NCBI GenBank assembly: GCA_038065655.1
Contig: JBBTQO010000009.1
Coordinates: forward strand, 218-64,217
Direction of reading: 5' to 3'
Source: Patescibacteria group bacterium
GTDB taxonomy: Bacteria; Patescibacteriota; Minisyncoccia; Phycocordibacterales; WO2-35-19
DNA: 64,000 bases
Positions 2,556 through 56,990 of the stretch are shown here, in pieces. Below the pieces are notes generated by a model. The model saw only the letters and a program-made list of their open reading frames with translations. It was not told the DNA's origin and made no database searches. The translations under genes and the position numbers were made by a program. Every line of letters starts with the position of its first letter. Positions within the stretch are counted from its first letter, which is position 1.

Positions 2556-5486
2556 CTACTGGGAAACATATTCGAAGGCTCCCAAATCGTAAGCTGTACC
2601 CTGAGGTCTTGATATCGCTGTGTAGTCGGTTGTTACATAACCGCTGACCGTATTTGATCCGGCATTTATAGCCGGACTTCCAGCCTGTAATCTTAGGTCT
2701 GAAGTTGAAACAAACAACGGATCTACTGTTTTTGCGCCTGATACTGTTATTCCATCACCAGATGGGGCTGATGTACCGTAGAACAGGTCGTTTTGGCTAT
2801 TGTAAGTACCACCCTGATAGGTTTCCAAGTTAAGTACATTAGCTCCAAGACTTCGGTAAATATTATTGCGAGATATAACTTGTGCGGTGCCAGTAATACA
2901 CATCATAATACTACTCCCATTCAACCCATAGAAAGTATTGTTGTAGAGATAGGCGTTGCGTGTGCCCCATGCAAAATACATTCCACCACAACCGTTAGTG
3001 TTTTCTCGCAATACATTGTTATAGATCCAAATATCTCCGTTGTGTGGAGTGGTATCACCGGTGTAGATAAATTCCATGTTTCCACCGTGGAAGTAGTTGG
3101 AGTGAATAAAGACGTGGTCAACTGTCTTTGTGCCTCCAGCGCCACGACTGACGAATATTGCTCCACCTCGGTTGTCACTACCAGCATAAGGTGAGTCAAA
3201 CTCATTCCAGCCCACTGTCACATAGTCAATGCTTTTATCTCCCGTGATGTAATCAGGGTGAGTCTTGATATAAACATTGTGTTTGTAACTGTCATATCCG
3301 TTGTTTTTAAATAAGTTTCCAAGAACTTGAACTTGTTGACTGTTGTCTACCATCACGACTCCAGTCCAGGCATCTGTGCGCATATCCTCCATACTGTTAC
3401 CTATAACTCGTATATAATCTCCCCAAAGACCAAACGCTTGCGTCCCACCTGTAATTCGAAGTTTTGCAAAGGTGAAATAGTTGTTACGTCCATATGGTGA
3501 GTAGTTGGCGTTCCAAATTACTCCTCGGTCGGCATTGAGATTATTGATGAGTGGGGTTTCGCCAGGATAACCTATTAACGCCTTACGCTTTGTACTGCTA
3601 CCATATGGCCCACGAAGTGCTACGAAGGTATCATCAACATCTAAGGCTGTATAGGTTCCATTTTTAACATAGACAATATATTGCCCATCGCCTGAAGGGT
3701 TTAACCCAGGATTAAATTTAAGGATATCTTTCCATGCTGTAGCTACGGTTGTACCATTGTTTGAGTTGCTTCCTGTAGGAGAAATAAAGTAAATTGCTCC
3801 TGCCATAACTTTAAATGGTAATGAATTTGAAGTGACACCGTTTACATTAACCGTGATTGATCCATCGCCATCAGTTGCAGAACTTTGAATCCAGAAAGTA
3901 ATTCTTTCTAACCCTCTGACTGAGCTGGTTATTCCCCATTCAACATATTCAGTAACTTTAGCACCGTTTATTGTCACATAACTTGTTCCTCTGGTGCTAC
4001 CTAAGTTTTCACCCCAAATGGTTATAGCTGCTCCTTTTGATGAGGAGCCCTCCCATCCTGTCTTTGGCCCCCAATCAAGATCGGAGAAAAATATTACTGG
4101 TCCTCCGGTAACACCTGGAGTTGGAATAGGGGTAGGTGTGGGAGTAGGCGTAGGAGTTGGGGTAGGAGTCGGAGCTGTATACTTAACTATATAATCTTCA
4201 ACAGCCCATCCATCTACTTCAGAATCAAAATTTATATTCCACCAAAACATACTATTTGCGTACGATGAACCACCAGTGACTGTTCCCAAGGAACCCAAAA
4301 TTTGGGTACCCAATAGACTTCCTGAAGTAGAAGGGGTTGATCGAACATTTAGATTGTCGGTTGTCTGAACTTTGTCACTAATTATAAATTTAGTACTGAT
4401 TGGGTCTGGGACCGGATCTGGAACAGGTTGAGATACTGTAATTGTTACGCTTTTATTAACGGAACCGCCTGTGCAAGTGATGGTGTAACTTGAATTACTT
4501 GTTGGAGCGACACTATAGGTACCGCTAGTTGATATTGATCCAGATAATGCACCACTTGCAGTACAAGAAGTAGTATTTTGAGAACTCCATGTAATTGTTG
4601 AACTTTGTCCAGAAGTTATTGATGTTGGAGACGCGCTAATCGAAACTGTTGGGGCAGGTGTTGGAGTAGGTGTGGGAGTTGGGGTAGGGCTATCTGAAGA
4701 TGTTTTAGGTTTAAATGATGCAAATACCGAAATAATATTGTAATCGGAATTGGTGTTGTTGGTTCCATTAAAACTATAACTACCTGAATTAACCGCCAAC
4801 TTTTCTGCAAGCAACAATCCATCAGCGCTTATTCTTGAAGTAAAACTTGGGTCTGGATTTAAAATGATAGACGATGAGCCATAAATTTCGGTGGCGCAAC
4901 CGACTAGCAATTCATTTGTCGATGAAGTATTTAACTGACCCGAATCCCATTTTGAACCGCCCTTATACCCTGAGTCATTTGCTACAAAACTATCTAATAC
5001 ATCAATCCCGCTATATTCCGCTGCCATCAAAATCGAAGGTCCCCAAGGGAAATTGGCTGACACTTGAGTTGCCCCACCATAATTATCGGTGGCATAATAG
5101 ATACTTAAATATCCGGCTGAACTGCTATTTTTTATACTACTTACCAATTTATAAATGTTTGATTTGTCGTCAGTAATTTTTGTTGGTACATCTCTACCAA
5201 CAAAACATGCAATAATGGTGTCACCTTTTAAAGTTTGATTTAATTTTGTGTATGTTGATGAGCCCCCAGTTGATTCATCTTTGTAACTTGATTGAATAAA
5301 TTTTATTTCTGAAGGTAATGACAAAATGACTGTTGAAGAATTATTGAAAATAGAATTATATATACTTGCAATATTTAATCTTTCTATATTTTGGGTAATA
5401 AAGGAATTGTTTCCCCACAAAATATATCCGGACAAAAAAAGTAGCAATCCGCTTATTGTCAGAAGAATCTTATTTCTAAATTTCAT
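2556..5486 (-). CDS. large secreted/surface multidomain protein with Pro-Thr linkers, Ig-like and SH3b-like modules and a C-terminal right-handed beta-helix (pectin-lyase-fold-like) region
   Basis: 976 aa. N-terminal signal anchor MKFRNKILLTISGLLLFLSGYILWG. Two PT-rich linkers (PTPTPTPTPAPT and PTPTPTPTPTPTPIPTP). An SH3b-like stretch (LNVRSTPSTSGSLLGTQ...GWAVEDYI). Repetitive NNxxxxN/G beta-helix-like repeats near the C-terminus. Confidence 0.55.
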   Translation of the reverse strand: MKFRNKILLTISGLLLFLSGYILWGNNSFITQNIERLNIASIYNSIFNNSSTVILSLPSEIKFIQSSYKDESTGGSSTYTKLNQTLKGDTIIACFVGRDVPTKITDDKSNIYKLVSSIKNSSSAGYLSIYYATDNYGGATQVSANFPWGPSILMAAEYSGIDVLDSFVANDSGYKGGSKWDSGQLNTSSTNELLVGCATEIYGSSSIILNPDPSFTSRISADGLLLAEKLAVNSGSYSFNGTNNTNSDYNIISVFASFKPKTSSDSPTPTPTPTPTPAPTVSISASPTSITSGQSSTITWSSQNTTSCTASGALSGSISTSGTYSVAPTSNSSYTITCTGGSVNKSVTITVSQPVPDPVPDPISTKFIISDKVQTTDNLNVRSTPSTSGSLLGTQILGSLGTVTGGSSYANSMFWWNINFDSEVDGWAVEDYIVKYTAPTPTPTPTPTPTPTPIPTPGVTGGPVIFFSDLDWGPKTGWEGSSSKGAAITIWGENLGSTRGTSYVTINGAKVTEYVEWGITSSVRGLERITFWIQSSATDGDGSITVNVNGVTSNSLPFKVMAGAIYFISPTGSNSNNGTTVATAWKDILKFNPGLNPSGDGQYIVYVKNGTYTALDVDDTFVALRGPYGSSTKRKALIGYPGETPLINNLNADRGVIWNANYSPYGRNNYFTFAKLRITGGTQAFGLWGDYIRVIGNSMEDMRTDAWTGVVMVDNSQQVQVLGNLFKNNGYDSYKHNVYIKTHPDYITGDKSIDYVTVGWNEFDSPYAGSDNRGGAIFVSRGAGGTKTVDHVFIHSNYFHGGNMEFIYTGDTTPHNGDIWIYNNVLRENTNGCGGMYFAWGTRNAYLYNNTFYGLNGSSIMMCITGTAQVISRNNIYRSLGANVLNLETYQGGTYNSQNDLFYGTSAPSGDGITVSGAKTVDPLFVSTSDLRLQAGSPAINAGSNTVSGYVTTDYTAISRPQGTAYDLGAFEYVSQ

Positions 5487-9379: not shown

Positions 9380-9421
9380 TGTCTTTTATTATGGAATTTT
9401 TTGTGGATATCGTGGAGGTGT

Positions 9422-9682
9422 TTATTTATAAACATCGTGATCCCCAACTGATAAAATAGCTGCGATTTTTTTAGAAACATACCGAAAAACGATACAAGTT
9501 TTGTAATTAACTGAAAAACTATATCTGCCAGTTAATTTACCATGCAATTTGTGCACTTTGAGTTGTTGATGATTTTTGCGATTTTTAAAAAGATTTATTT
9601 TATCCAAAACCTCTTCACCTAAAGCATATTCTAATTTTTTAAACTCTTTTATAAAATTGGGAGTATAAATTAACTCAATCAT
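9422..9682 (-). CDS. type II toxin, RelE/ParE family
   Basis: 86 aa. ...KLHGKLTGRYSFSVNYKTCIVFRYVSKKIAAILSVGDHDVYK fits the ParE/RelE C-terminal pattern. Immediately downstream of an RHH antitoxin gene. Confidence 0.75.
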   Translation of the reverse strand: MIELIYTPNFIKEFKKLEYALGEEVLDKINLFKNRKNHQQLKVHKLHGKLTGRYSFSVNYKTCIVFRYVSKKIAAILSVGDHDVYK

Positions 9683-9967: not shown

Positions 9968-10912
9968 TTAACCTCTTTTATTATGAAATTTTTTGTGGAT
10001 GTCGCGGAGGTGTTTGTCGGTGACATGGGTGTAGATTTGGGTGGTGCCTATGTTGGCGTGGCCGAGTAGAGCTTGCACAGAGCGCAGGTCGGCGCCATTT
10101 GAGAGTAAGTCGGTAGCAAAAAGATGGCGCATAGTGTGAGGCGTGACTTTTTTTGATATACCAGCTTTAATTGCATAATGTTTTACTATCCTCTCCACTG
10201 ATCTACGAGTAATGGCCAATCCTTTGCCGCGAGATTCTTGGGCCTTGCTGTTTTTTGATAGTTGAACAAAGAGTGCATCGTCCATATCTTTTCTCTTGGC
10301 TAAATATTCCTTCAAAACTTTTTTAGCATAGTCTGATATGAAAACCACTCGGAGCTTTCTGCCTTTGCCCATAATGGAAAGTTCGTCTGTAGTGAGGTCT
10401 ATATCGCGTGTTAGGGAACAAAGTTCAGAAACACGCAATCCGGTGGAAAAAAGTAATTCTAATATTGCCTTATCACGAAGTGCGTCAAGGCTATTATCTT
10501 TTGGGGCGTCTAACAATCTTTTTAATTCAGCGTTAGTGATGAGATCTAGAGATCTTTCAGGGGTTCTGGCCAGTTCAATCCTTTCCGAGGGCATAGACTT
10601 GATTTCTTGCCTAGCGAGATATTTTAGAAATGCCCTAATAGAGATTAAATAATAATTTTGGGTTTTTTTTGACATTGTTTCCCCTGTTTTTCTGTTGTTC
10701 CCTGTGACTTGGCGATTTAACCAAAGGCGGAATTCACGCACTACACTATCGGTAATGTCTTCAGGTTGTTTTGCTCCTGTTTGCTTTAAAAATACATCGA
10801 GATAATGCTGGTAATTCTCAACAGTTTTCAGAGCGCGACCCTTTTCAATCTCCACATATTCCAAAAATTGCCTTTTTAGTTGTTCTAGATCTTGTGCCAT
10901 ATATAACCCCAC
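9968..10912 (-). CDS. tyrosine recombinase XerC/XerD family
   Basis: 314 aa. C-terminal HTMRHLFATDLLSNGADLRSVQALLGHANIGTTQIYTHV carries the R..H..R..Y catalytic signature. Confidence 0.85.
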   Translation of the reverse strand: MGLYMAQDLEQLKRQFLEYVEIEKGRALKTVENYQHYLDVFLKQTGAKQPEDITDSVVREFRLWLNRQVTGNNRKTGETMSKKTQNYYLISIRAFLKYLARQEIKSMPSERIELARTPERSLDLITNAELKRLLDAPKDNSLDALRDKAILELLFSTGLRVSELCSLTRDIDLTTDELSIMGKGRKLRVVFISDYAKKVLKEYLAKRKDMDDALFVQLSKNSKAQESRGKGLAITRRSVERIVKHYAIKAGISKKVTPHTMRHLFATDLLSNGADLRSVQALLGHANIGTTQIYTHVTDKHLRDIHKKFHNKRG

Positions 10913-12483: not shown

Positions 12484-12545
12484 CCCATCACCTTCGCAAG
12501 GTGAGGGGCAACTTGCCGTGGGGCAAGTGGGGTGGGGTCGGAAGG
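12484..12545 (-). repeat. Family-C double-hairpin element (reverse orientation) in the rpsO leader
   Basis: Its reverse complement reads ccttccgaccccacccca-cttgccccacggcaag-ttgcccctcaccttgcgaaggtgatggg. Compare 56930..56990. Confidence 0.55.
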
Positions 12546-12639
12546 AAATTTGAAGATGGTCTTTTGGGGTAGGATATTCAAAGATCATCTTCGGGAAAGA
12601 GGATTTGCAAAAAAATGGGGTTTATGCTATCCTTTTGCC

Positions 12640-22477: not shown

Positions 22478-22535
22478 TTTCCCTTCCCAGAAGATGACCT
22501 TTGAAGACCCTGCCTCAAAAGGTCATCTTCAAATT
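22478..22535 (+). terminator. Family-B post-stop hairpin with conserved loop (after tpiA)
   Basis: tttcccttcccaGAAGATGACCTTTgaagaccctgcctcaAAAGGTCATCTTCaaatt. Confidence 0.6.
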
Positions 22536-22583: not shown

Positions 22584-22621
22584 ATACACAGATTTCAGAC
22601 GGTCGTCGCTAATCTGTGTAT
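22584..22621 (+). promoter_or_regulatory. 38-nt palindromic operator-like site (ATACACAG-N-GACGGTCGTC-N-CTGTGTAT), copy 3
   Basis: atacacagatttcagacggtcgtcgctaatctgtgtat overlaps the higB start. Confidence 0.55.
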
Positions 22622-22879
22622 GTAATAAAAAACAAAATTATTTCTTTAGTTGATGTTTTGATGGAAAATAATGGCTCGCTTGGAAACCTTGATTCAAAAA
22701 GTTTAAGAAAAGGACTTTTTGAACTAAGATTAATTGGTTCTGTTAATACAAGAATATTTTATTGTTTTCATAAAGACACAATCTATTTATTACACGCAAT
22801 AATTAAGAAAACTCAAAGAACACCAATAAGAGAAATTGAATTTGCTAGAAAAATGAAAAAGATAGTTGGACAATTATAA
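22616..22879 (+). CDS. HigB-like toxin (Gp49/DUF891-like)
   Basis: ...LRKGLFELRLIGSVNTRIFYCFHKDTIYLLHAIIKKTQRTPIREIEFARK matches Gp49-like killer proteins. Overlaps the downstream XRE antitoxin gene. The track start is a GTG inside a palindrome, so the true start may instead be Met at 22661. Confidence 0.65.
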   Translation: MYVIKNKIISLVDVLMENNGSLGNLDSKSLRKGLFELRLIGSVNTRIFYCFHKDTIYLLHAIIKKTQRTPIREIEFARKMKKIVGQL

Positions 22880-23195
22880 CGCATATGTTATCATAAACAA
22901 TATGGAAAAAACATATAAAAAAATAAAACTAATTTCTCATGAAGACTTCAAAAAAAAGCTTTTAAAGAAGCCATCTTTCCGTAAGTACTATGAAGAAACA
23001 AGTTTTGAAAGAGAAATTTTCAAGGCAATTATAAAGGCAAGAGCTCAAAAAGATCTTACCCAAAGAGAGCTAGCGGAAAAAATCGGTGTCAAACAATCAG
23101 CCTTGGCGCGTTTTGAATCTGGCAGAACCAACCCCACACTCGGTTTTCTTAAAAAAGTTGTTTCAGGATTAGGTTTGAATGTGACGGTAAAATAA
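22866..23195 (+). CDS. HigA-like XRE-family antitoxin
   Basis: ...LTQRELAEKIGVKQSALARFESGRTNPTLGFLKKVVSGLGLNV is an HTH_XRE domain. Confidence 0.7.
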   Translation: MDNYNAYVIINNMEKTYKKIKLISHEDFKKKLLKKPSFRKYYEETSFEREIFKAIIKARAQKDLTQRELAEKIGVKQSALARFESGRTNPTLGFLKKVVSGLGLNVTVK

Positions 23196-32289: not shown

Positions 32290-32375
32290 TATACACTAAA
32301 TAATCTTTGCTTTTTTGAGGGTGGCGTAGGCGCCGTTTTTTTGGATGGTTTTGAGTTTAACCGTATTGTTTTTAC
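32290..32375 (-). pseudogene. fragment duplicating the 3' end of rpmB (L28)
   Basis: The minus frame encodes ...KNNTVKLKTIQKNGAYATLKKAKII*. Plus-strand 32308..32353 is identical to 32943..32988 (the rpmB 3' end). Confidence 0.6.
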
Positions 32376-32919: not shown

Positions 32920-33162
32920 TTATATAACTCCAGCTTTTTTGAGGGTGGCGTAGGCGCCGTTTTTTTGGATGGTTTTGATGGCTCGAGTAGAGAGAGTCAG
33001 AGTAAAAGATTTGTTGAGTTCGGGCACGAAAATTTTCTTTTTTTGTAAATTGGCAAATTTCCTTGTATTGCCACAAGGATTAAACTGGGTGGCGCGGGTT
33101 CGGTTTGAATAGGAACCGCCCATCTGAGATGATTTTTTTGTAATTGCACATTCTTTAGCCAT
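32920..33162 (-). CDS. rpmB: 50S ribosomal protein L28
   Basis: MAKECAITKKSSQMGGSYSNRTRATQFNPCGNTRKFANLQKKKIFVPELNKSFTLTLSTRAIKTIQK follows the L28 pattern. Confidence 0.8.
   Translation of the reverse strand: MAKECAITKKSSQMGGSYSNRTRATQFNPCGNTRKFANLQKKKIFVPELNKSFTLTLSTRAIKTIQKNGAYATLKKAGVI
32943..32988 (+). repeat. direct repeat partner of 32308..32353 (3' end of rpmB)
   Basis: 46 nt identical. Confidence 0.65.
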
Positions 33163-35677: not shown

Positions 35678-36097
35678 ATGCCTACTATAAATCAATTAGT
35701 TAAAAGAAAAAGAAAAATTCTTCGCTCGAAATCAAAAGCGATAGCTTTGGCGCGTGGTTTTAATACTTTAAAGAACAGACCGGTATATTATGCCTCTCCT
35801 TTTAAAAGAGGTGTTTGTACTAAAGTAACTACCAAAACTCCAAGAAAACCCAACTCAGCTATCCGAAAGATTGCCAGGGTCCGCTTAACCAATGGTATGG
35901 AAGTGACTGCCTATATCCCAGGAATGGGACACAATTTGCAAGAGCACTCAGTGGTTATGCTTAGAGGAGGGAGAGTGAAAGATATTGGAGTACGCTACAC
36001 CATAGTCAGAGGTAAGCTCGACGCTCAGGGCGTAGCCAATAGAAAGACCTCAAGATCAAGTTATGGCGTTAAAAGACCTAAAAAAGATGGAAAATAA
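35678..36097 (+). CDS. rpsL: 30S ribosomal protein S12
   Basis: [13 protein letters not shown]...[45 protein letters not shown]. Confidence 0.9.
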
Positions 36098-36100
36098 AAT

Positions 36101-36571
36101 ATGAGAGGAAAAGTAAAAAACAGAAACATAGCTAAACCGGATATAATTTTTAATTCTCAAAAAGTTGAGAAGTTTATTAATTATGTAATGCAGGAAGGCA
36201 AGAAAAATACTGCCCGAAAAATAGTTTATACCGCTTTTGATTTAATTAAAGAAAAAGCCAAAGTAGAAAGTCCAATGGAAGTATTTGATACTGCTTTAAA
36301 AAATGCCGGACCAACTATGGAGGTTCGTTCTCGCCGAATTGGGGGTGCTAACTATCAAGTGCCGAGAGAAGTTAGACCAGAGAGAAGATCTTATCTTTCA
36401 ATGAAATGGATTATTGATGCCGCTAAAGCTAAAAAAGGCAAACCAATGGCCGAAAAACTTTCCGAGGAAATAATTTTAGCTTCTAAAAACGAAGGCGAAG
36501 CTATCAAAAAACGCGAAAACGTTCACAAAATGGCTGAATCCAACAAAGCTTTTGCCCATTTTGCGTGGTAA
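36101..36571 (+). CDS. rpsG: 30S ribosomal protein S7
   Basis: Typical S7 sequence, ...[19 protein letters not shown].... Confidence 0.9.
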
Positions 36572-36629
36572 TTTTTTCTTTCAATATTTTGTTGCAGAAG
36601 CACCACTCGGTGTTTTTTGTTTTTTAGTA

Positions 36630-36667
36630 ATACACAGATTACTGACAACCGTCAGTGATGTGTGTAT
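36630..36667 (+). promoter_or_regulatory. 38-nt palindromic operator-like site, copy 1 (overlaps a TATAAT box and abuts the paaX-like start)
   Basis: atacacagattactgacaaccgtcagtgatgtgtgtat. -10 TATAAT at 36668..36673, ATG at 36681. Confidence 0.55.
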
Positions 36668-36680
36668 TATAATAAAAGCA

Positions 36681-37250
36681 ATGATAACGAGTTTAGAGAA
36701 AAAAATTAAAAAGGCAAATATACAAAAAGTTATTTTGGAAACGGTAAAATTAGCTGGAATTATTGGTGTTGGAATAATTGCTCCGAATGTATTGAGGGCA
36801 ATGAAAAAAATGGGGTTCATTACACACCCAAGGCAAATTGAATCAATAAAAAGATCTCGAGATGTTCTTATTGAAAGAGGTTTGCTTGAAAATAAAAACG
36901 GGCAACTAAAGATAACGCAAGGAGGAAAAAGGTATTTATTCAGGTGCTTATCTTTGGGAGACAATAAGGAATTAAACAAAAATAAAAAATGGGATGGCAA
37001 ATGGCGGGTTTTAATTTTTGACATTCCCGAAAGCAGGAGATTTGACAGAACAAATATTCGCCAAGCTCTTATTTCAATCGGATTTATGAGGTTGCAGGAT
37101 AGTGTTTGGATATATCCATATAGTTGTGAAAACATAGTATCTCTTTTAAAAGCTGAAACCGAAACGGAAGGAGATGTTTTGTATATGATTGTGGAAGCAT
37201 TGGAAAATGACGAAGAAGTAAAAAAATACTTCGGACTTAGTAAAAAATAG
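36681..37250 (+). CDS. PaaX-family transcriptional regulator-like protein
   Basis: C-terminal KWDGKWRVLIFDIPESRRFDRTNIRQALISIGFMRLQDSVWIYP matches the PaaX_C signature (WDG.W.lv.fdlPe..r..Rd.lr..L...GFg.l..gvWi.P). Inserted between rpsG and fusA. Confidence 0.65.
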   Translation: MITSLEKKIKKANIQKVILETVKLAGIIGVGIIAPNVLRAMKKMGFITHPRQIESIKRSRDVLIERGLLENKNGQLKITQGGKRYLFRCLSLGDNKELNKNKKWDGKWRVLIFDIPESRRFDRTNIRQALISIGFMRLQDSVWIYPYSCENIVSLLKAETETEGDVLYMIVEALENDEEVKKYFGLSKK

Positions 37251-37260
37251 ATTTTTTGGT

Positions 37261-37298
37261 ATACACAGGTTATTGACGGTCGTCGATGATGTGTGTAT
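37261..37298 (+). promoter_or_regulatory. 38-nt palindromic operator-like site, copy 2 (immediately after the paaX-like stop)
   Basis: atacacaggttattgacggtcgtcgatgatgtgtgtat. Confidence 0.5.
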
Positions 37299-37353: not shown

Positions 37354-37390
37354 GGACGATCGCCTGTTGTGGCGATCGTCCCCTGAATCA
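37354..37390. terminator. bidirectional intrinsic terminator
   Basis: Perfect stem GGACGATCGCC/GGCGATCGTCC with loop TGTTGT, flanked by T/A runs on both strands. Confidence 0.55.
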
Positions 37391-37414: not shown

Positions 37415-37660
37415 TTACCTTGGTAGATCCGAAAGTTTGTGTGGTACCTGAACAAAAACTACCGAGGCCTCAAATTCCAAGTCACTGACTTTCAGTCTCA
37501 ATTTGAAATACTCTTTTTTCTCATTGAGATGAAACCACCCTCTTTTTTTGAGATATTGCACTGCAAAATCAGCAGCCACAAATTCACCATATTGATGGCC
37601 GGCTACTTCAATCCTGTATTTACCGATCATTCCTGTTAAATGCATGGGGCATCTGCGCAT
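37415..37660 (-). CDS. hypothetical 81-aa protein
   Basis: ORF between the paaX-like cassette and the fusA promoter. No recognisable family. Confidence 0.3.
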   Translation of the reverse strand: MRRCPMHLTGMIGKYRIEVAGHQYGEFVAADFAVQYLKKRGWFHLNEKKEYFKLRLKVSDLEFEASVVFVQVPHKLSDLPR

Positions 37661-37777
37661 TTTACACCTTTGCCATTAAACTACCCCTGTTTAGATATTT
37701 TTGCAATTTATTGCTTGTTGGTGTATATTTTCAAGTGTTCCTTACGGAATTTTTTATTTACCTAAATTATTTATTTT

Positions 37778-39931
37778 ATGAATCGTGATTATCCGTTAGA
37801 GAGAGTTAGAAATTTTGGAATTATAGCCCATATTGATGCCGGCAAGACTACTGTTTCCGAGCGTATTTTGTTTTACACCGGAAGCCAGCACAAGATTGGA
37901 GAAGTGCATGAAGGGGAGACTACCACTGACTGGATGGAACAGGAGCGGGAACGAGGAATTACTATCACCGCGGCCGCCATTACTTGTTTTTGGGCACCAA
38001 CATATTTGGGTGAAGAAAGCAGAAAAAACAAAGATAATAAATATCGTTTTAATATTATTGATACTCCAGGGCACATTGATTTTACAGTGGAAGTGAAAAG
38101 ATCAATGCGTGTTTTGGATGCGGCTGTTTGTGTGTTTGATGGCGTAGCCGGAGTTGAGCCTCAGAGCGAAACCAACTGGCGCTATGCCGAGGAAGCCGCT
38201 GTGCCTCGTCTTTGTTTTATAAATAAATTAGATCGAATTGGCGCTAACTTTGAAAAATCATATAAATCAATTTTGGTCAGACTTTCCAAAAAGGCCGTTC
38301 GTATGCAAATACCGGTTGGTGAGGAAGATAAACACGAAGGACAAATTGATTTGTTAAAAATGAAAGCTTACAAATTTGAAGGTCACTTGGGCGGTAATGT
38401 GATTGAGACAGAAGTTCCTGAGAATTTGAAGGAGGAAGCCTTAAAATACCGAGCTGAATTGGTGGAAAGAATTGTAGAGAACAATGATGAAATGATGAAT
38501 AAATATTTAGCTGGGGAGGAAATTGCTGTCGCCGATTTGAAAAAGATTTTGCGCGAAGCTGTTATTGCTAATAAAATTTTCCCAGTTTTTTGTGGTTCTG
38601 CTTTGAAAAATAAAGGAGTGCAGTTGGTTTTGGATGCCGTCGTTGATTATCTACCTAGTCCACTCGATATGCCGGCTATAAAAGGTATTGATCCGAGAAC
38701 TGGCGAAGAGGTAGAAAGACACCCTTCTGACGAAGAACCATTTTCTGCTTTGGCTTTCAAACTTCAAGCCGATCCTTTCGTGGGACAACTCACATTCTTC
38801 CGGGTTTATTCTGGGACAATTGAGTCAGGCTCTTATATATATAATGCTTCAACTGGTGACAAAGAAAGACTTGGTCGTATCGTGCGATTACAGGCCGATA
38901 AGAGAGAAGAAGTGAAAAAAGTTTTTGCCGGAGAAATTGCCGCCGCTGTCGGTTTGAAAGATACCAAAACTTCAAACACATTTTGTGATGAAAATAATCC
39001 TATTATTTTGGAGACCATCATTTTCCCAGAACCAGTTATTTCACTTCGCATTGAACCTAAGACCAAAGCTGACCAAGAGAGAATGGGTATGGCCCTGCAT
39101 CGCCTTTCAGATGAAGACCCAACCTTTAAAGTTAAAGGTGATCCAGAAACAGGAGAAACTGTTATTTCTGGAATGGGCGAATTACATTTGGATATTATTG
39201 TTGATCGTATGAAAAGAGAATTTAATGTGGAAGCTAATGTCGGTGCGCCACAAGTAGCGTACAAAGAGACTATTACCGGTACGGCCGAAGCCGAAACTAA
39301 ATACATCAAACAGACTGGTGGAAAAGGTCAATACGGTCACGTCAAACTCAATATTAAACCTTTGGAGGCAGAAGTGGAAAATAAGAAAAAACAGAAAAAC
39401 ATTCATCGCGAAGAAGGTTTTGAATTCGTTGATTCCATCAAAGGTGGTGTGATTCCTTCTGAATTTATCCCTGCGGTTGAAAAGGGTGTCAAAGAGGCGA
39501 TGGAGCGAGGTATCGTGGCTGGCTACAAAATGGTGGATATTTCTTGTGAACTTACCTTTGGTTCTTACCATGATGTGGACTCATCTGAAATCGCTTACAA
39601 GATTGCCGCATCGCAAGCATTCCAAGAGGCGGCCAAAAAAGCTAAACCAGTGATTCTTGAACCCATTATGAAATTGGAAGTGGTGGTGCCGGAACAGTTT
39701 ATGGGTGATATTACGGGCCACCTTTCATCTAAACGAGGTTTGATTGAAGGTATGGATGATAGAGCTGGACTCAAAGTGGTTAAAGCTAAAGTGCCTCTTT
39801 CAGAATTATTTGGTTATGTTACAACACTTCGCTCTATGACTGAGGGTCGTGGTAATGCTAACATTGAATTTGATCACTATGCTATCGTGCCGGCTAACAT
39901 AGCTTTGGCTATTGTGGAAGCGAGGAAATAA
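37778..39931 (+). CDS. fusA: elongation factor G
   Basis: NFGIIAHIDAGKTTVSERILFYTG, DTPGHIDF, NKLD. 717 aa. Confidence 0.95.
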   Translation: MNRDYPLERVRNFGIIAHIDAGKTTVSERILFYTGSQHKIGEVHEGETTTDWMEQERERGITITAAAITCFWAPTYLGEESRKNKDNKYRFNIIDTPGHIDFTVEVKRSMRVLDAAVCVFDGVAGVEPQSETNWRYAEEAAVPRLCFINKLDRIGANFEKSYKSILVRLSKKAVRMQIPVGEEDKHEGQIDLLKMKAYKFEGHLGGNVIETEVPENLKEEALKYRAELVERIVENNDEMMNKYLAGEEIAVADLKKILREAVIANKIFPVFCGSALKNKGVQLVLDAVVDYLPSPLDMPAIKGIDPRTGEEVERHPSDEEPFSALAFKLQADPFVGQLTFFRVYSGTIESGSYIYNASTGDKERLGRIVRLQADKREEVKKVFAGEIAAAVGLKDTKTSNTFCDENNPIILETIIFPEPVISLRIEPKTKADQERMGMALHRLSDEDPTFKVKGDPETGETVISGMGELHLDIIVDRMKREFNVEANVGAPQVAYKETITGTAEAETKYIKQTGGKGQYGHVKLNIKPLEAEVENKKKQKNIHREEGFEFVDSIKGGVIPSEFIPAVEKGVKEAMERGIVAGYKMVDISCELTFGSYHDVDSSEIAYKIAASQAFQEAAKKAKPVILEPIMKLEVVVPEQFMGDITGHLSSKRGLIEGMDDRAGLKVVKAKVPLSELFGYVTTLRSMTEGRGNANIEFDHYAIVPANIALAIVEARK

Positions 39932-39989
39932 TTCCCTTCCCAAAGGGTGACCCTTGAAGATCCTGCCCCAAAGGGTCATCCTCAAATTT
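39931..39989 (+). terminator. Family-B post-stop hairpin (after fusA), stem with compensatory changes
   Basis: attcccttcccaAAGGGTGACCCTTgaagatcctgccccaAAGGGTCATCCTCaaattt. Confidence 0.6.
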
Positions 39990-46313: not shown

Positions 46314-46786
46314 ATTTGTGGAGATGCCGATATTGAAACCGGATGCAAATAAGTTTTGATAATGCTTCTACGCGATGTAGTTAATTTTATTCTGTTTTGC
46401 AACAGAAATTTGATATTTGTTCTAAAAAATTAACAAAACAAACAAATATCTAGTTTCTTATTTCAAAAACAAGCCGAAACATTTCTTGTTTTTAAAGTCC
46501 GAAGTTATTACAATTCCTTTCTCTAACAGACTTCAAGAGGGAACCGTCGCTTAGGGGAACTTAAAATTAAGTTCTAACGTAAGCGAAAGCAAAATCGTTG
46601 ACTCCAAAATATGGAGAAACAACAGACTTAGCTTGTGCAAGAATGTTTTTAGCATTTATGCTTTGGAAACTTTTTAAGAGTTTTTCCAGCTCTATCGCGC
46701 GCATTGTCAAAGAATCTCATCTGTCTAAACCTGTCATCCCCCTAAAACATTTTATGAAATAAAATATTTTGGGCGAACTTTTGGTT

Positions 46787-56864: not shown

Positions 56865-56876
56865 TCTCATTCTTCA

Positions 56877-56929
56877 TTTCCCAGAAGATGACCTTTGAAT
56901 ATCCTGCCCCAAAAGGTCATCTTCAAATT
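56877..56929 (+). terminator. Family-B post-stop hairpin (after secY)
   Basis: tttcccaGAAGATGACCTTTgaatatcctgccccaAAAGGTCATCTTCaaatt. Confidence 0.6.
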
Positions 56930-56990
56930 TTCCGACCCCACCCCATCCGACTTGCGCCGGATTGCCCCTCACCTTGCGAAGGTGAGGGAA
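56930..56990 (+). repeat. Family-C double-hairpin element
   Basis: ttccgaccccacccca-tccgacttgcgccggat-tgcccctcaccttgcgaaggtgagggaag. Confidence 0.55.

What the first reader, a model, noticed from the sequence alone, without database searches (positions are those of the whole stretch)
36630..37298. PaaX-like regulator gene inserted between rpsG and fusA, bracketed by two copies of a 38-nt palindrome; a third copy overlaps the higBA start
The normally contiguous str operon (rpsL-rpsG-fusA) is interrupted by a 570-nt gene whose C-terminus matches the PaaX_C signature. Copy 1 (ATACACAG-N9-GACaaccGTC-N9-tGTGTAT) overlaps a TATAAT box 7 nt before the ATG, a leaderless-type arrangement; copy 2 starts 11 nt after the stop. 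A third, near-identical palindrome sits on the start of the HigB-like toxin gene at 22584-22621. Two readings are possible. (a) The palindromes are operators of one regulator, most plausibly this PaaX-like protein, which then autoregulates, gates read-through into fusA and controls the toxin-antitoxin module. (b) The palindromes are attC-like or recombination sites marking a mobile gene cassette. Either reading would be unusual inside a ribosomal-protein operon.
Basis: partly seen in the sequence, partly recalled or inferred. Interest (0 to 1): 0.75.

Follow-up and report, generated by a model that had tools for sequence, protein, structure and literature searches.

The report
Mini-PaaX gene bracketed by cognate palindromes
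A small DNA-binding protein gene sits between two ribosomal-operon genes in a Patescibacteria genome. It is flanked on both sides by copies of its own probable 38-bp binding site, and this layout recurs, with locus-specific palindromes, in most of 81 related loci examined.

Summary
Three copies of ATACACA-N24-TGTGTAT lie at 22584, 36630 and 37261, and no shuffle reaches three. Two of them bracket a 189-aa gene between rpsG and fusA. That gene is not PaaX_C-like. It is a short PaaX relative: a winged helix plus the Cas2-like PaaX_M domain, with no C-terminal effector domain.

The main new result is family-wide. In 64 of 81 loci from Paceibacteria, homologues are bracketed by a locus-specific 36-46-bp palindrome upstream and downstream. 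The upstream copy holds a -10-like box, and the ATG often sits at a fixed position inside it, which points to a leaderless, self-repressed gene. The site geometry (ATACAC-N26-GTGTAT) matches the E. coli PaaX operator (TGATTC-N27-GAATCA).

I read the palindromes as cognate binding sites of this protein. Solo copies in relatives are few. They lie upstream of higBA, but also often between convergent genes, and their occupancy varies between relatives. This resembles REP elements more than a classical regulon.

An attC-like cassette and gating of fusA are both poorly supported. The site has no polarity, there are no target duplications, and fusA has its own conserved promoter-like site. Binding and any nuclease activity are untested.

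The parts
35678..36097 (+). rpsL (context, start of the str operon)
   Evidence: ORF. Orthologues in L001-L005 and L007 are 83-90% identical.
36101..36571 (+). rpsG
   Evidence: ORF. Orthologues are 88-96% identical and sit directly upstream of the module in relatives.
36596..36627 (+). Terminator-like hairpin plus T-run after rpsG. It ends 2 nt before the upstream palindrome.
   Evidence: stem 36596-36617, tail TGTTTTTTAG. A T-run is the only conserved feature left of the palindrome in orthologues.
36630..36667 (.). Upstream palindrome (copy 1), the proposed operator of the adjacent gene
   Evidence: It is a conserved island in orthologues found by protein similarity. It overlaps the promoter-like site.
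36642..36673 (+). Promoter-like site: CTGACA (36642-36647), 17 nt, TATTAT (36665-36670), overlapping TATAAT (36668-36673). The ATG follows 7 nt later, so the mRNA would be leaderless or nearly so.
   Evidence: 10 of 12 matches, the best in the region. Sequence. The TATAAT and the ATG are conserved in orthologues.
36681..37250 (+). Gene for a 189-aa short PaaX-family protein: winged helix plus Cas2-like PaaX_M domain, no PaaX_C
37261..37298 (.). Downstream palindrome (copy 2), the second cognate site
   Evidence: Its outer arms and core are conserved in orthologues while the flanks are not. Family-wide it is tied to the gene's own stop codon (median 37.5 nt from stop to centre).
37354..37381 (-). 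Terminator-like hairpin of the antisense small gene
   Evidence: 11 pairs, 8 G-C, T-run.
37415..37660 (-). orf81, a small antisense gene of unknown function between the module and fusA
   Evidence: ORF. No Pfam, NCBIfam, PADLOC or PHROG match. A 73% identical homologue lies on the other side of the module in L083 and L099.
37701..37729 (+). fusA's own promoter-like site, TTGCAA-17-TATATT
   Evidence: The same sequence block precedes fusA in L083 and L092.
37778..39931 (+). fusA (EF-G)
   Evidence: ORF. Orthologues are 88-92% identical.
22584..22621 (.). Solo palindrome (copy 3) between tpiA and the higBA remnant
   Evidence: The same site is kept upstream of higBA in L081, L086 and L087.
22616..22879 (+). 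5'-truncated higB-like gene (Gp49/RelE family)
   Evidence: PF05973 E 7.2e-15, with the profile match starting at position 11. An alignment shows a roughly 140-nt deletion relative to the intact 103-aa genes.
22902..23195 (+). higA-like HTH antitoxin gene
   Evidence: PF01381 E 1.5e-15. 96% identical to the L081 gene. It has its own promoter-like site at 22867-22894.

Best explanation
The 189-aa gene encodes a short PaaX-type DNA-binding protein. It has an N-terminal winged helix and a Cas2-like dimerisation domain, and it lacks the C-terminal effector domain. The 38-bp palindromes are its cognate double-stranded DNA binding sites.

Proposed mechanism: a dimer places its two winged helices about three helical turns apart on the outer hexamers (ATACAC-N26-GTGTAT), as E. 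coli PaaX does on TGATTC-N27-GAATCA. The upstream site covers the -35, the -10 and the start of a leaderless or nearly leaderless mRNA, so the protein represses its own gene. The downstream site and the few solo sites are further binding sites of the same protein. They most likely act as an auxiliary operator (a loop of about 630 bp) and as protein-bound boundaries at gene ends. This would insulate the small gene, which sits inside a strongly transcribed ribosomal-protein region.

The arrangement is a family trait. Paralogues in Paceibacteria each carry their own palindrome pair, so protein and site have diversified together.

Shown here: the sequence architecture, its conservation and the fold. 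Inferred: binding, repression, looping and the roadblock role.
For: Protein identity:
- PaaX_M E 2.4e-20.
- The AlphaFold2 model shows helix-helix-hairpin at residues 36-78, then a beta-alpha-beta-beta-alpha-beta domain.

Operator geometry: it equals the published PaaX site (PMC9493321).

Family-wide bracketing:
- 64 of 81 loci have both copies.
- Identity between the upstream and downstream copies of one locus, versus copies from different loci: arms 0.66 vs 0.38, outer hexamer 0.83 vs 0.58.
- There is no similarity beyond the palindrome edge (0.31 vs 0.29).

Promoter integration:
- The first in-frame ATG lies at +18 from the dyad in 35 of 73 upstream copies.
- A TAnnnT box occurs in the gene-facing arm in 44 of 73 copies, against 22-28 of 70-73 in each of the other three arms.
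- In the window, CTGACA-17-TATTAT lies inside the palindrome.

Conservation: in orthologues found by protein only, the palindromes are conserved islands within diverged intergenic DNA.

Co-variation: half-site similarity tracks the helix-plus-wing segment (rho 0.22) more than the Cas2-like domain (0.10) or the N-terminus (0.00). Distinct recognition-helix motifs go with distinct outer motifs: EFI with TACGT, DVV with GTAC, SSSASKL with TACATC.

Symmetry: the site has no polarity. There is no significant G.U over A.C strand bias. Both fit a symmetric dimer on duplex DNA.

Rarity: only 34 stretches in the metagenome collection carry the site, and only 3 copies occur in 64 kb.

higBA link: the palindrome-higBA association is kept in three other loci.
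Against: - No binding data exist.
- The N-terminal Pfam PaaX model does not match. Residues 1-34 are modelled with low confidence, and the overall pLDDT is 69.6.
- A dimer contacting only the outer hexamers does not explain why the arms and the centre (CGRYCG or CTATAG) are also symmetric and conserved.
- Solo sites are not where operators are expected. Counting distinct positions: 7 convergent, 4 co-directional, 0 divergent. The background by length is 29%, 56% and 15%.
- Occupancy of orthologous solo positions varies between relatives.
- A 38-bp site cannot arise by point mutation, so some DNA copying process is needed that a plain regulon model does not supply.
- The co-variation between helix and half-site is weak and is confounded by phylogeny.
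- The protein has no effector domain, so it is unclear what would relieve repression.
Confidence: 0.55

Rival explanations
1. REP/RAYT-like system. The palindromes are a low-copy dispersed repeat family. The bracketed gene is their vertically inherited partner, which binds them and also spreads or maintains them. The Cas2-fold domain would supply a nuclease activity in place of the HUH transposase of RAYTs. Autoregulation at the upstream copy would be a secondary feature.
For: - The gene is flanked on both sides by its cognate palindrome, and each paralogue has its own class. This is the hallmark of RAYT genes and their REPs (the RAYT comparison comes from my own knowledge).
- Solo copies lie in intergenic DNA and are enriched between convergent genes and next to terminators and other hairpin repeats.
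- Occupancy varies between relatives.
- Exact duplicate copies occur in L061 and L063.
- Two palindrome classes cluster in L105, L110 and L101.
- The module is absent from the rpsG-fusA spacer of a close relative and shifted relative to orf81 in another.
- Cas2 signature residues are kept. The Asp at the end of strand 1 (D114) and the Q-x-S-V-W motif are invariant in 26 sequences. The protein passes the NCBIfam cas2 cut-off.
Against: - Copy number is low: about 1 solo copy per 60-90 kb, against tens to hundreds for REPs.
- There is no HUH or any known transposase domain.
- The module has stayed at rpsG-fusA in orthologues down to 66% identity, and a 52%-identical family member occupies the same position.
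- The sites are symmetric, with no 5' tetranucleotide polarity.
- The exact register of the upstream copy with the -10 box and the ATG is what a repressor needs, not what a mobilising enzyme needs.
- The family is absent from IMG/VR.
- In PaaX relatives the Cas2-like domain is a dimerisation module. Rv0674 has Thr at the D114 position.
Confidence: 0.2
2. The palindromes act as RNA hairpins. The downstream and solo copies would be 3'-end hairpins that terminate transcription or stabilise mRNA. The upstream copy, when transcribed by read-through from rpsG, would fold over the ATG and block translation. The adjacent protein would be irrelevant, or would bind RNA through its Cas2/RRM-like fold.
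For: - In the window the sense-strand RNA hairpins are strong: -26.1 and -23.2 kcal/mol, z -9.3 and -6.1. The antisense strand of copy 2 folds poorly (-9.3 kcal/mol), because three mismatches are G.U on the sense strand.
- Many copies lie just after stop codons.
- The genome uses other long hairpin repeats directly after stop codons.
Against: - Family-wide there is no significant excess of G.U over A.C on the sense strand: 53 vs 39 (p 0.17) downstream and 53 vs 42 (p 0.30) upstream.
- The copies of one locus share sequence, not just pairing, which a hairpin does not require.
- No consistent T-run follows the downstream copies.
- From its own promoter only the right arm of the upstream copy would be transcribed.
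- Outer hexamers 26 bp apart match a known DNA operator geometry.
Confidence: 0.1
3. The palindromes are site-specific recombination sites (attC-, dif- or att-like), and the gene is a cassette that is excised and inserted between them. Solo copies would be empty sites or scars.
For: - Two direct copies bracket one gene.
- The module is present, absent or shifted in close relatives.
- Solo copies exist.
- One solo copy is linked to a toxin-antitoxin pair, a typical cassette cargo.
Against: - No recombinase or any conserved neighbour across 77 loci.
- The central dinucleotide is in the same orientation in 9 loci and flipped in 13, so the site has no polarity to direct excision.
- There are no target duplications.
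- The upstream copy is built into the promoter and start codon.
- The position is stable over long divergence.
- The higB truncation is an ordinary deletion that begins about 5 nt beyond the palindrome, not at its edge.
Confidence: 0.04

Closest known systems
E. coli PaaX repressor and its operators (paa, pac and paaXY promoters)
   Same: - The operator is two 6-bp inverted repeats about 27 bp apart: TGATTC-N27-GAATCA versus ATACAC-N26-GTGTAT.
- Autorepression by occlusion of its own promoter is documented for PaaX and inferred here.
   Different: - No C-terminal PaaX_C effector domain. The protein has 189 aa; the E. coli PaaX chain 8a39 has 305 residues.
- It scores 30 bits against the 264.55-bit TIGR02277 cut-off.
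- There are no paa genes nearby.
- The whole 38 bp is symmetric, not only the outer hexamers.
- A second site lies directly after the stop codon in most family members.
- Several paralogues with distinct sites occur per genome.
- The family is restricted to Patescibacteria.
REP elements and their RAYT genes (REPtrons)
   Same: - A single-copy, vertically inherited gene flanked by its cognate palindromic repeats.
- One repeat class per paralogue.
- Extra copies in extragenic DNA, often between convergent genes and clustered with other repeats.
   Different: - The protein is not an HUH/Y1 transposase.
- Copy number is one to two orders of magnitude lower.
- The repeats are symmetric and lack polarity.
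- The upstream copy is part of the promoter and start codon.
Cas2 of CRISPR-Cas adaptation modules
   Same: - Ferredoxin-like Cas2 fold with the conserved Asp after strand 1 and the Q-x-S-V-(F/W) motif.
- The repeats next to it are 36-38 nt and palindromic, a size typical of CRISPR repeats.
   Different: - The Cas2 fold is fused to a winged helix.
- There is no cas1, no array and no leader.
- The 'spacer' between the two repeats is the gene itself (593 nt).
- The Cas2-like domain of PaaX is described as a dimerisation module.
Repressors with auxiliary operators and DNA looping (LacI, GalR, DeoR, lambda CI)
   Same: A primary operator over the promoter plus a second cognate site hundreds of bp away. 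Here the spacing is 588-769 bp, median 635.5.
   Different: - The second site always lies just past the repressor's own stop codon, so the loop would enclose exactly the repressor gene.
- Oligomerisation beyond a dimer is not known for this family.

Membership tests
PaaX family (phenylacetyl-CoA-responsive repressor) | Central Cas2-like domain (PF20803 PaaX_M) | tested here: met
   E 2.4e-20, 72.8 bits against a cut-off of 24, residues 102-177.
PaaX family (phenylacetyl-CoA-responsive repressor) | N-terminal PaaX winged-helix domain | tested here: inconclusive
   No Pfam hit to an N-terminal PaaX model at E up to 1. The AlphaFold2 model has helix-helix-hairpin at residues 36-78. Foldseek alignments to 3kfw and 8a39 span 143-171 columns. 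Residues 1-34 have pLDDT below 50.
PaaX family (phenylacetyl-CoA-responsive repressor) | C-terminal PaaX_C helical effector domain | tested here: not met
   The protein ends at residue 189, just after the Cas2-like domain. There is no PaaX_C hit.
PaaX family (phenylacetyl-CoA-responsive repressor) | Equivalog score (TIGR02277) and paa gene neighbourhood | tested here: not met
   30.3 bits against a cut-off of 264.55. No conserved neighbour family across 77 loci.
PaaX family (phenylacetyl-CoA-responsive repressor) | Operator of two 6-bp inverted repeats about 27 bp apart, bound by the protein | not testable with these tools
   The sequence geometry is present (ATACAC-N26-GTGTAT, versus TGATTC-N27-GAATCA). 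Binding itself cannot be tested here.
Cas2 (CRISPR adaptation) | Cas2 sequence profile | tested here: met
   TIGR01573 scores 25.5 bits against a cut-off of 24.5, a marginal pass. PADLOC Cas2 E 1.2e-6.
Cas2 (CRISPR adaptation) | Adjacent cas1 and a CRISPR array | tested here: not met
   No recurrent neighbour in 77 loci. Only two repeats bracket the gene, and no array was seen in the window.
REP/RAYT (REPtron) | Gene flanked by its cognate palindromic repeats, one class per paralogue | tested here: met
   64 of 81 loci have both copies. Same-locus copies are more alike than copies from different loci.
REP/RAYT (REPtron) | HUH/Y1 transposase fold of the flanked gene | tested here: not met
   Only PaaX_M and Cas2 matches.
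REP/RAYT (REPtron) | Many dispersed extragenic copies (tens to hundreds per genome) | tested here: not met
   3 copies in 64 kb, including the two flanking ones. Eight or fewer extra same-class copies in about 680 kb of family loci. 34 stretches in the whole metagenome collection. No complete genome was available.
Integron cassette / attC | Integrase nearby and a polar, imperfect attC hairpin | tested here: not met
   No conserved neighbour. The site is symmetric, with the central dinucleotide in the same orientation 9 times and flipped 13 times.
Insertion sequence / MITE | Terminal inverted repeats with target-site duplication and a transposase | tested here: not met
   The longest shared direct flank averages 3.66 nt against a null of 3.55 +/- 0.11. 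No transposase domain. Each end is itself a complete palindrome.
HigBA toxin-antitoxin (copy 3 neighbour) | Intact Gp49/RelE-type toxin plus HTH antitoxin | tested here: not met
   The antitoxin is intact (PF01381 E 1.5e-15). The toxin matches PF05973 from profile position 11 onward. It lacks about 21 codons relative to the 103-aa orthologues.

The most novel reading that the evidence does not exclude
The winged-helix-Cas2-fold protein and its palindromes form a REP/RAYT-like partnership in which a Cas2-fold domain, rather than an HUH transposase, recognises and propagates its own 36-46-bp palindromic repeats. This would be a new class of repeat-associated protein in the minimal genomes of Paceibacteria. 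It would also be a free-living 'Cas2 plus palindromic repeat' module with no Cas1, which bears on how CRISPR repeats and Cas2 first came together.
Probability: 0.15. Interest if true: 0.9.

Novelty: new variant of a known kind. Interest (0 to 1): 0.6.

Why it matters
Almost nothing is known about gene regulation in Patescibacteria (CPR), and these organisms cannot be grown alone.

This family is large. It has 325 clusters at 50% identity with E up to 1e-30 and 533 loci in species-representative genomes. At least 14 genomes carry two or more paralogues among the 80 loci shown.

Each member carries two copies of its probable binding site next to it. That gives dozens of natural protein-site pairs, from which a recognition code could be read and tested in vitro without culturing the organisms.

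The bracketing of a repressor gene by its own sites, inside ribosomal-protein operons, suggests a self-insulating regulatory module that I have not seen described. If the solo copies turn out to be propagated by the protein, this would be a new kind of repeat-associated system built on the Cas2 fold.

Tried and rejected
- Chance: rejected. 0 of 100 shuffles give 3 matches. Random 230-nt windows reach 10-11 of 19 symmetric pairs, whereas the flanks reach 13-19.
- Recent segmental duplication of the flanks: rejected. Similarity stops exactly at the palindrome edge (0.31 vs 0.29 at positions 20-22).
- Downstream copy as operator of the next gene: rejected as a general rule. The downstream neighbour is on the same strand in 38 loci and the opposite strand in 28, at widely varying distance, whereas the distance to the family gene's own stop is tight. 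Only L019 and L020 have a sizeable ORF starting at +18, and these look spurious.
- Target-site duplications: none found.
- Polarity of the centre: none found.
- Strand-specific G.U signature of an RNA hairpin: not significant.
- Phage origin: no family member in IMG/VR and no PHROG match.
- Defence-system membership: only Cas2 profiles match in PADLOC.
- Conserved partner gene: none.
- Palindrome-mediated truncation of higB: rejected. It is an ordinary deletion of about 140 nt that starts about 5 nt past the palindrome.
- Sequence search of the PDB with the single protein found nothing. The profile search found only Rv0674, weakly.
- Literature searches for this family in CPR found nothing.
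- I could not obtain whole genomes, so no per-genome census of solo sites was possible.
Full report
**What is in the window**

The window comes from a Patescibacteria genome. An exact copy of the protein is annotated in a 'Patescibacteria group bacterium' MAG, and all close homologues are from Zambryskibacteria or Paceibacterota.

rpsL (35678-36097), rpsG (36101-36571) and fusA (37778-39931) are present. They are separated by 1.2 kb, which holds the following features:
- a terminator-like hairpin after rpsG (36596-36617 plus a T-run);
- a 38-bp palindrome (36630-36667);
- a 189-aa gene (36681-37250);
- a second palindrome (37261-37298);
- a small antisense gene with its own terminator (37415-37660 and 37354-37381);
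- a promoter-like site for fusA (37701-37729).

A third palindrome lies at 22584-22621, between tpiA and a higBA pair. Three matches to ATACACA-N24-TGTGTAT are far above chance: 0.18 are expected and 0 of 100 shuffles reach three. No weaker copy exists in the 64 kb.

**Two corrections to the observation**

First, the protein matches PaaX_M, the central Cas2-like domain (E 2.4e-20), not PaaX_C. It has no C-terminal effector domain. It also passes, marginally, the NCBIfam Cas2 cut-off.

Second, the higB gene is a remnant. Compared with L086, L087 and L081, about 140 nt are missing, starting about 5 nt after the palindrome. The deletion removed the leader and about 21 codons. In those relatives the palindrome lies roughly 60-90 nt upstream of an intact 103-aa higB.

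**The bracketing is a family trait**

A scan of species-representative genomes found 533 loci encoding relatives. I examined the best 80 plus the window, and at least 14 genomes carry two or more paralogues among them.

In 64 of 81 loci there is a 36-46-bp palindrome both upstream and downstream of the gene. The palindromes differ between loci, but the two copies of one locus resemble each other:

| Region of the half-site | Same locus | Different loci |
|---|---|---|
| Arms (positions 5-13) | 0.66 | 0.38 |
| Outer hexamer (positions 14-19) | 0.83 | 0.58 |
| Centre (positions 1-4) | 0.88 | 0.61 |
| Beyond the edge (positions 20-22) | 0.31 | 0.29 |

The repeated unit is therefore the palindrome itself, not a duplicated segment.

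No neighbouring gene family recurs, so the module stands alone. The downstream copy is tied to the gene's own stop codon (median 37.5 nt from stop to centre). The next gene lies on either strand, at any distance.

**The upstream copy is built into the promoter**

- In 35 of 73 upstream copies the first in-frame ATG lies at +18 from the dyad, inside the right arm.
- A TAnnnT box sits in the gene-facing arm in 44 of 73 copies, against 22-28 of 70-73 in each of the other three arms.
- The most common gap between that box and the ATG is 6 nt.

This is the layout of a leaderless mRNA whose -10 box and start site are covered by the site. In the window's own subgroup, the best promoter-like site of the region, CTGACA-17-TATTAT, lies within the palindrome. 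TATAAT follows directly, 7 nt before the ATG.

In orthologues retrieved by protein similarity alone, the palindrome, the TATAAT and the ATG form a conserved island. The outer arms and core of the downstream copy are also conserved. The surrounding intergenic DNA is not.

**Why I read the palindromes as binding sites of this protein**

- The E. coli PaaX site is TGATTC-N27-GAATCA (PMC9493321). The site here is ATACAC-N26-GTGTAT, the same unusual wide spacing expected from two winged helices held apart by a Cas2-like dimer.
- Recognition-helix motifs sort with outer half-site classes: Q-x-E-F-I with TACGT, D-V-V with GTAC, S-S-S-A-S-K-L with TACATC.
- Half-site similarity correlates better with the helix-plus-wing segment (rho 0.22) than with the Cas2-like domain (0.10) or the N-terminus (0.00). 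This correlation is weak and confounded by descent.
- The site is symmetric. Its centre is CGRYCG or CTATAG in 56 of 64 loci, and the central dinucleotide is in the same orientation in 9 loci and flipped in 13.
- Mismatches show no significant G.U over A.C bias on the sense strand: 53 vs 39 and 53 vs 42. That argues for duplex DNA rather than an RNA hairpin, even though the window's own copies fold well as sense RNA.

**What the other copies do is less clear**

The exact window-type pattern occurs in only 34 stretches of the metagenome collection. About nine of these flank the gene between rpsG and fusA, or flank more distant homologues. Three lie upstream of higBA. About twenty are solo copies elsewhere:
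- after the rplL terminator (in L090, L103 and L111/L112, the last two carrying identical sequence);
- after alaS;
- after a PGA_cap gene (in the window that gene is followed directly by the tmRNA gene);
- after a NifU-like gene;
- downstream of secY;
- between dnaE and a class II tRNA synthetase gene;
- downstream of rpsJ.

Counting distinct positions, 7 lie between convergent genes, 4 between co-directional genes and none between divergent genes. The background by length is 29%, 56% and 15%. By my own binomial estimate p is about 0.02, on a small sample de-duplicated by eye.

The window has orthologues of two of these positions but lacks the palindrome there. Density is about one solo copy per 60-90 kb.

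This pattern is not that of classical operators. A 38-bp site also cannot arise by point mutation, so copies must have spread by some DNA copying process. The overall picture resembles REP elements and their RAYT genes: a gene bracketed by cognate palindromes, one class per paralogue, and solo copies in extragenic DNA. I keep this as the main rival and as the most novel reading. Four points count against it: low copy number, no transposase fold, lack of polarity, and the exact promoter register of the upstream copy.

**Mobility of the module**

The position between rpsG and fusA is kept in orthologues of 66-91% identity. A 52%-identical family member with a different palindrome class also sits directly downstream of rpsG. 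The module is therefore inherited vertically over long periods.

Stability is not absolute, however:
- A close relative (fusA 92% identical) has a 437-nt rpsG-fusA spacer with another antisense ORF and no module.
- In L083 and L099 the small gene orf81 lies on the other side of the module.
- A 72%-identical homologue sits between argS-like and purN-like genes, as judged by eye.

There are no target-site duplications, no recombinase and no phage copies. An attC-like or IS-like mechanism is therefore poorly supported.

**fusA**

Gating of fusA by read-through is unlikely. rpsG has a terminator-like hairpin. A convergent gene with a strong terminator lies between the downstream palindrome and fusA. 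fusA is preceded by TTGCAA-17-TATATT, which is conserved in L083 and L092.

**Verdict**

The locus encodes a short PaaX-type DNA-binding protein flanked by its own cognate sites. The upstream site most likely mediates autorepression of a leaderless gene. The downstream and solo sites are further binding sites. Their role (looping, insulation at gene ends, or REP-like propagation) is inferred, not shown.

The bracketing across a large Patescibacteria-specific family is, as far as the searchable literature shows, undescribed.

Three things remain unexplained:
- why the whole 38 bp, and not only the outer hexamers, is symmetric and conserved;
- what reads the CGRYCG or CTATAG centre;
- what signal, if any, relieves repression in a protein with no effector domain.

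Noticed in passing
window 22479-22535, 39932-39988, 56873-56929; inverted copy at 12547-12606: A 57-nt hairpin repeat (86-91% identical copies) starts 1-12 nt after the stop codons of tpiA, fusA and secY. It is probably a REP-like or terminator element. In L105 the copy after secY is split by an insertion.
   Followed up: partly
window 12485-12543 and 56930-56988: A 59-nt GC-rich inverted repeat pair directly abuts two of the 57-nt hairpin copies, forming a composite repeat.
   Followed up: no
window 22616-22879: The higB-like toxin gene is 5'-truncated by a deletion of about 140 nt, while higA is intact and has its own promoter-like site at 22867-22894. The module is probably a decaying toxin-antitoxin pair.
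   Followed up: yes
window 46316-46741 (-): A tmRNA gene abuts the end of a PGA_cap gene (46310). Relatives L084, L088 and L100 carry an ATACACA palindrome just after the stop of the orthologous PGA_cap gene. The window does not.
   Followed up: partly
L105:989-1022, L110:2503-2536, L101:131-164; L085:4945-4978: A second palindrome class, ATTRACA-N5-GACNNNNGTC-N5-TGTYAAT, shares the core of the window palindrome but has outer arms that read like TTGACA...TAAAAT. It lies 6-27 nt from ATACACA palindromes at three places. L085 has a third variant with the same core.
   Followed up: partly
window 37415-37660 (-); L083:10977-11216; L092:6950-7200: The rpsG-fusA spacer is a hotspot for small antisense ORFs of unknown function. 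orf81 lies downstream of the module here and upstream of it in L083 and L099. L092 has a different antisense ORF and no module. L083 also has a small membrane-like ORF.
   Followed up: partly
L061 (centres 907 and about 999); L063 (centre 2904); L028 (centre 4670): Some family loci have extra copies of their palindrome close to the module. These include exact 38-nt duplicates 92 nt apart (L061) and 170 nt upstream of the upstream copy (L063).
   Followed up: no
L009:4608-5183; L006:3696-3908 (-): An exonuclease-like ORF (my reading of the sequence) starts at the edge of the downstream palindrome in L009. A fragment of a similar ORF lies just upstream of the module in L006.
   Followed up: no
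window 32309-32354 and 32933-32978; 1132-1213 and 2229-2310; 9382-9423 and 9974-10015; 4117-4700: Other repeats: an exact 46-nt direct repeat 624 nt apart; an 82-nt repeat (89%) 1097 nt apart; a 42-nt repeat (93%) 592 nt apart; and 12-nt-period GGxGTxGGxGTx repeats. These are probably paralogous or repetitive coding sequence.
   Followed up: no
L023 and similar Kaiserbacteria loci (L026, L031, L033, L052 group): In another lineage, ORF clusters that I read by eye as secY-, adk- and map-like lie 2-5 ORFs upstream of the module. It again sits at the end of a ribosomal-protein super-operon.
   Followed up: no
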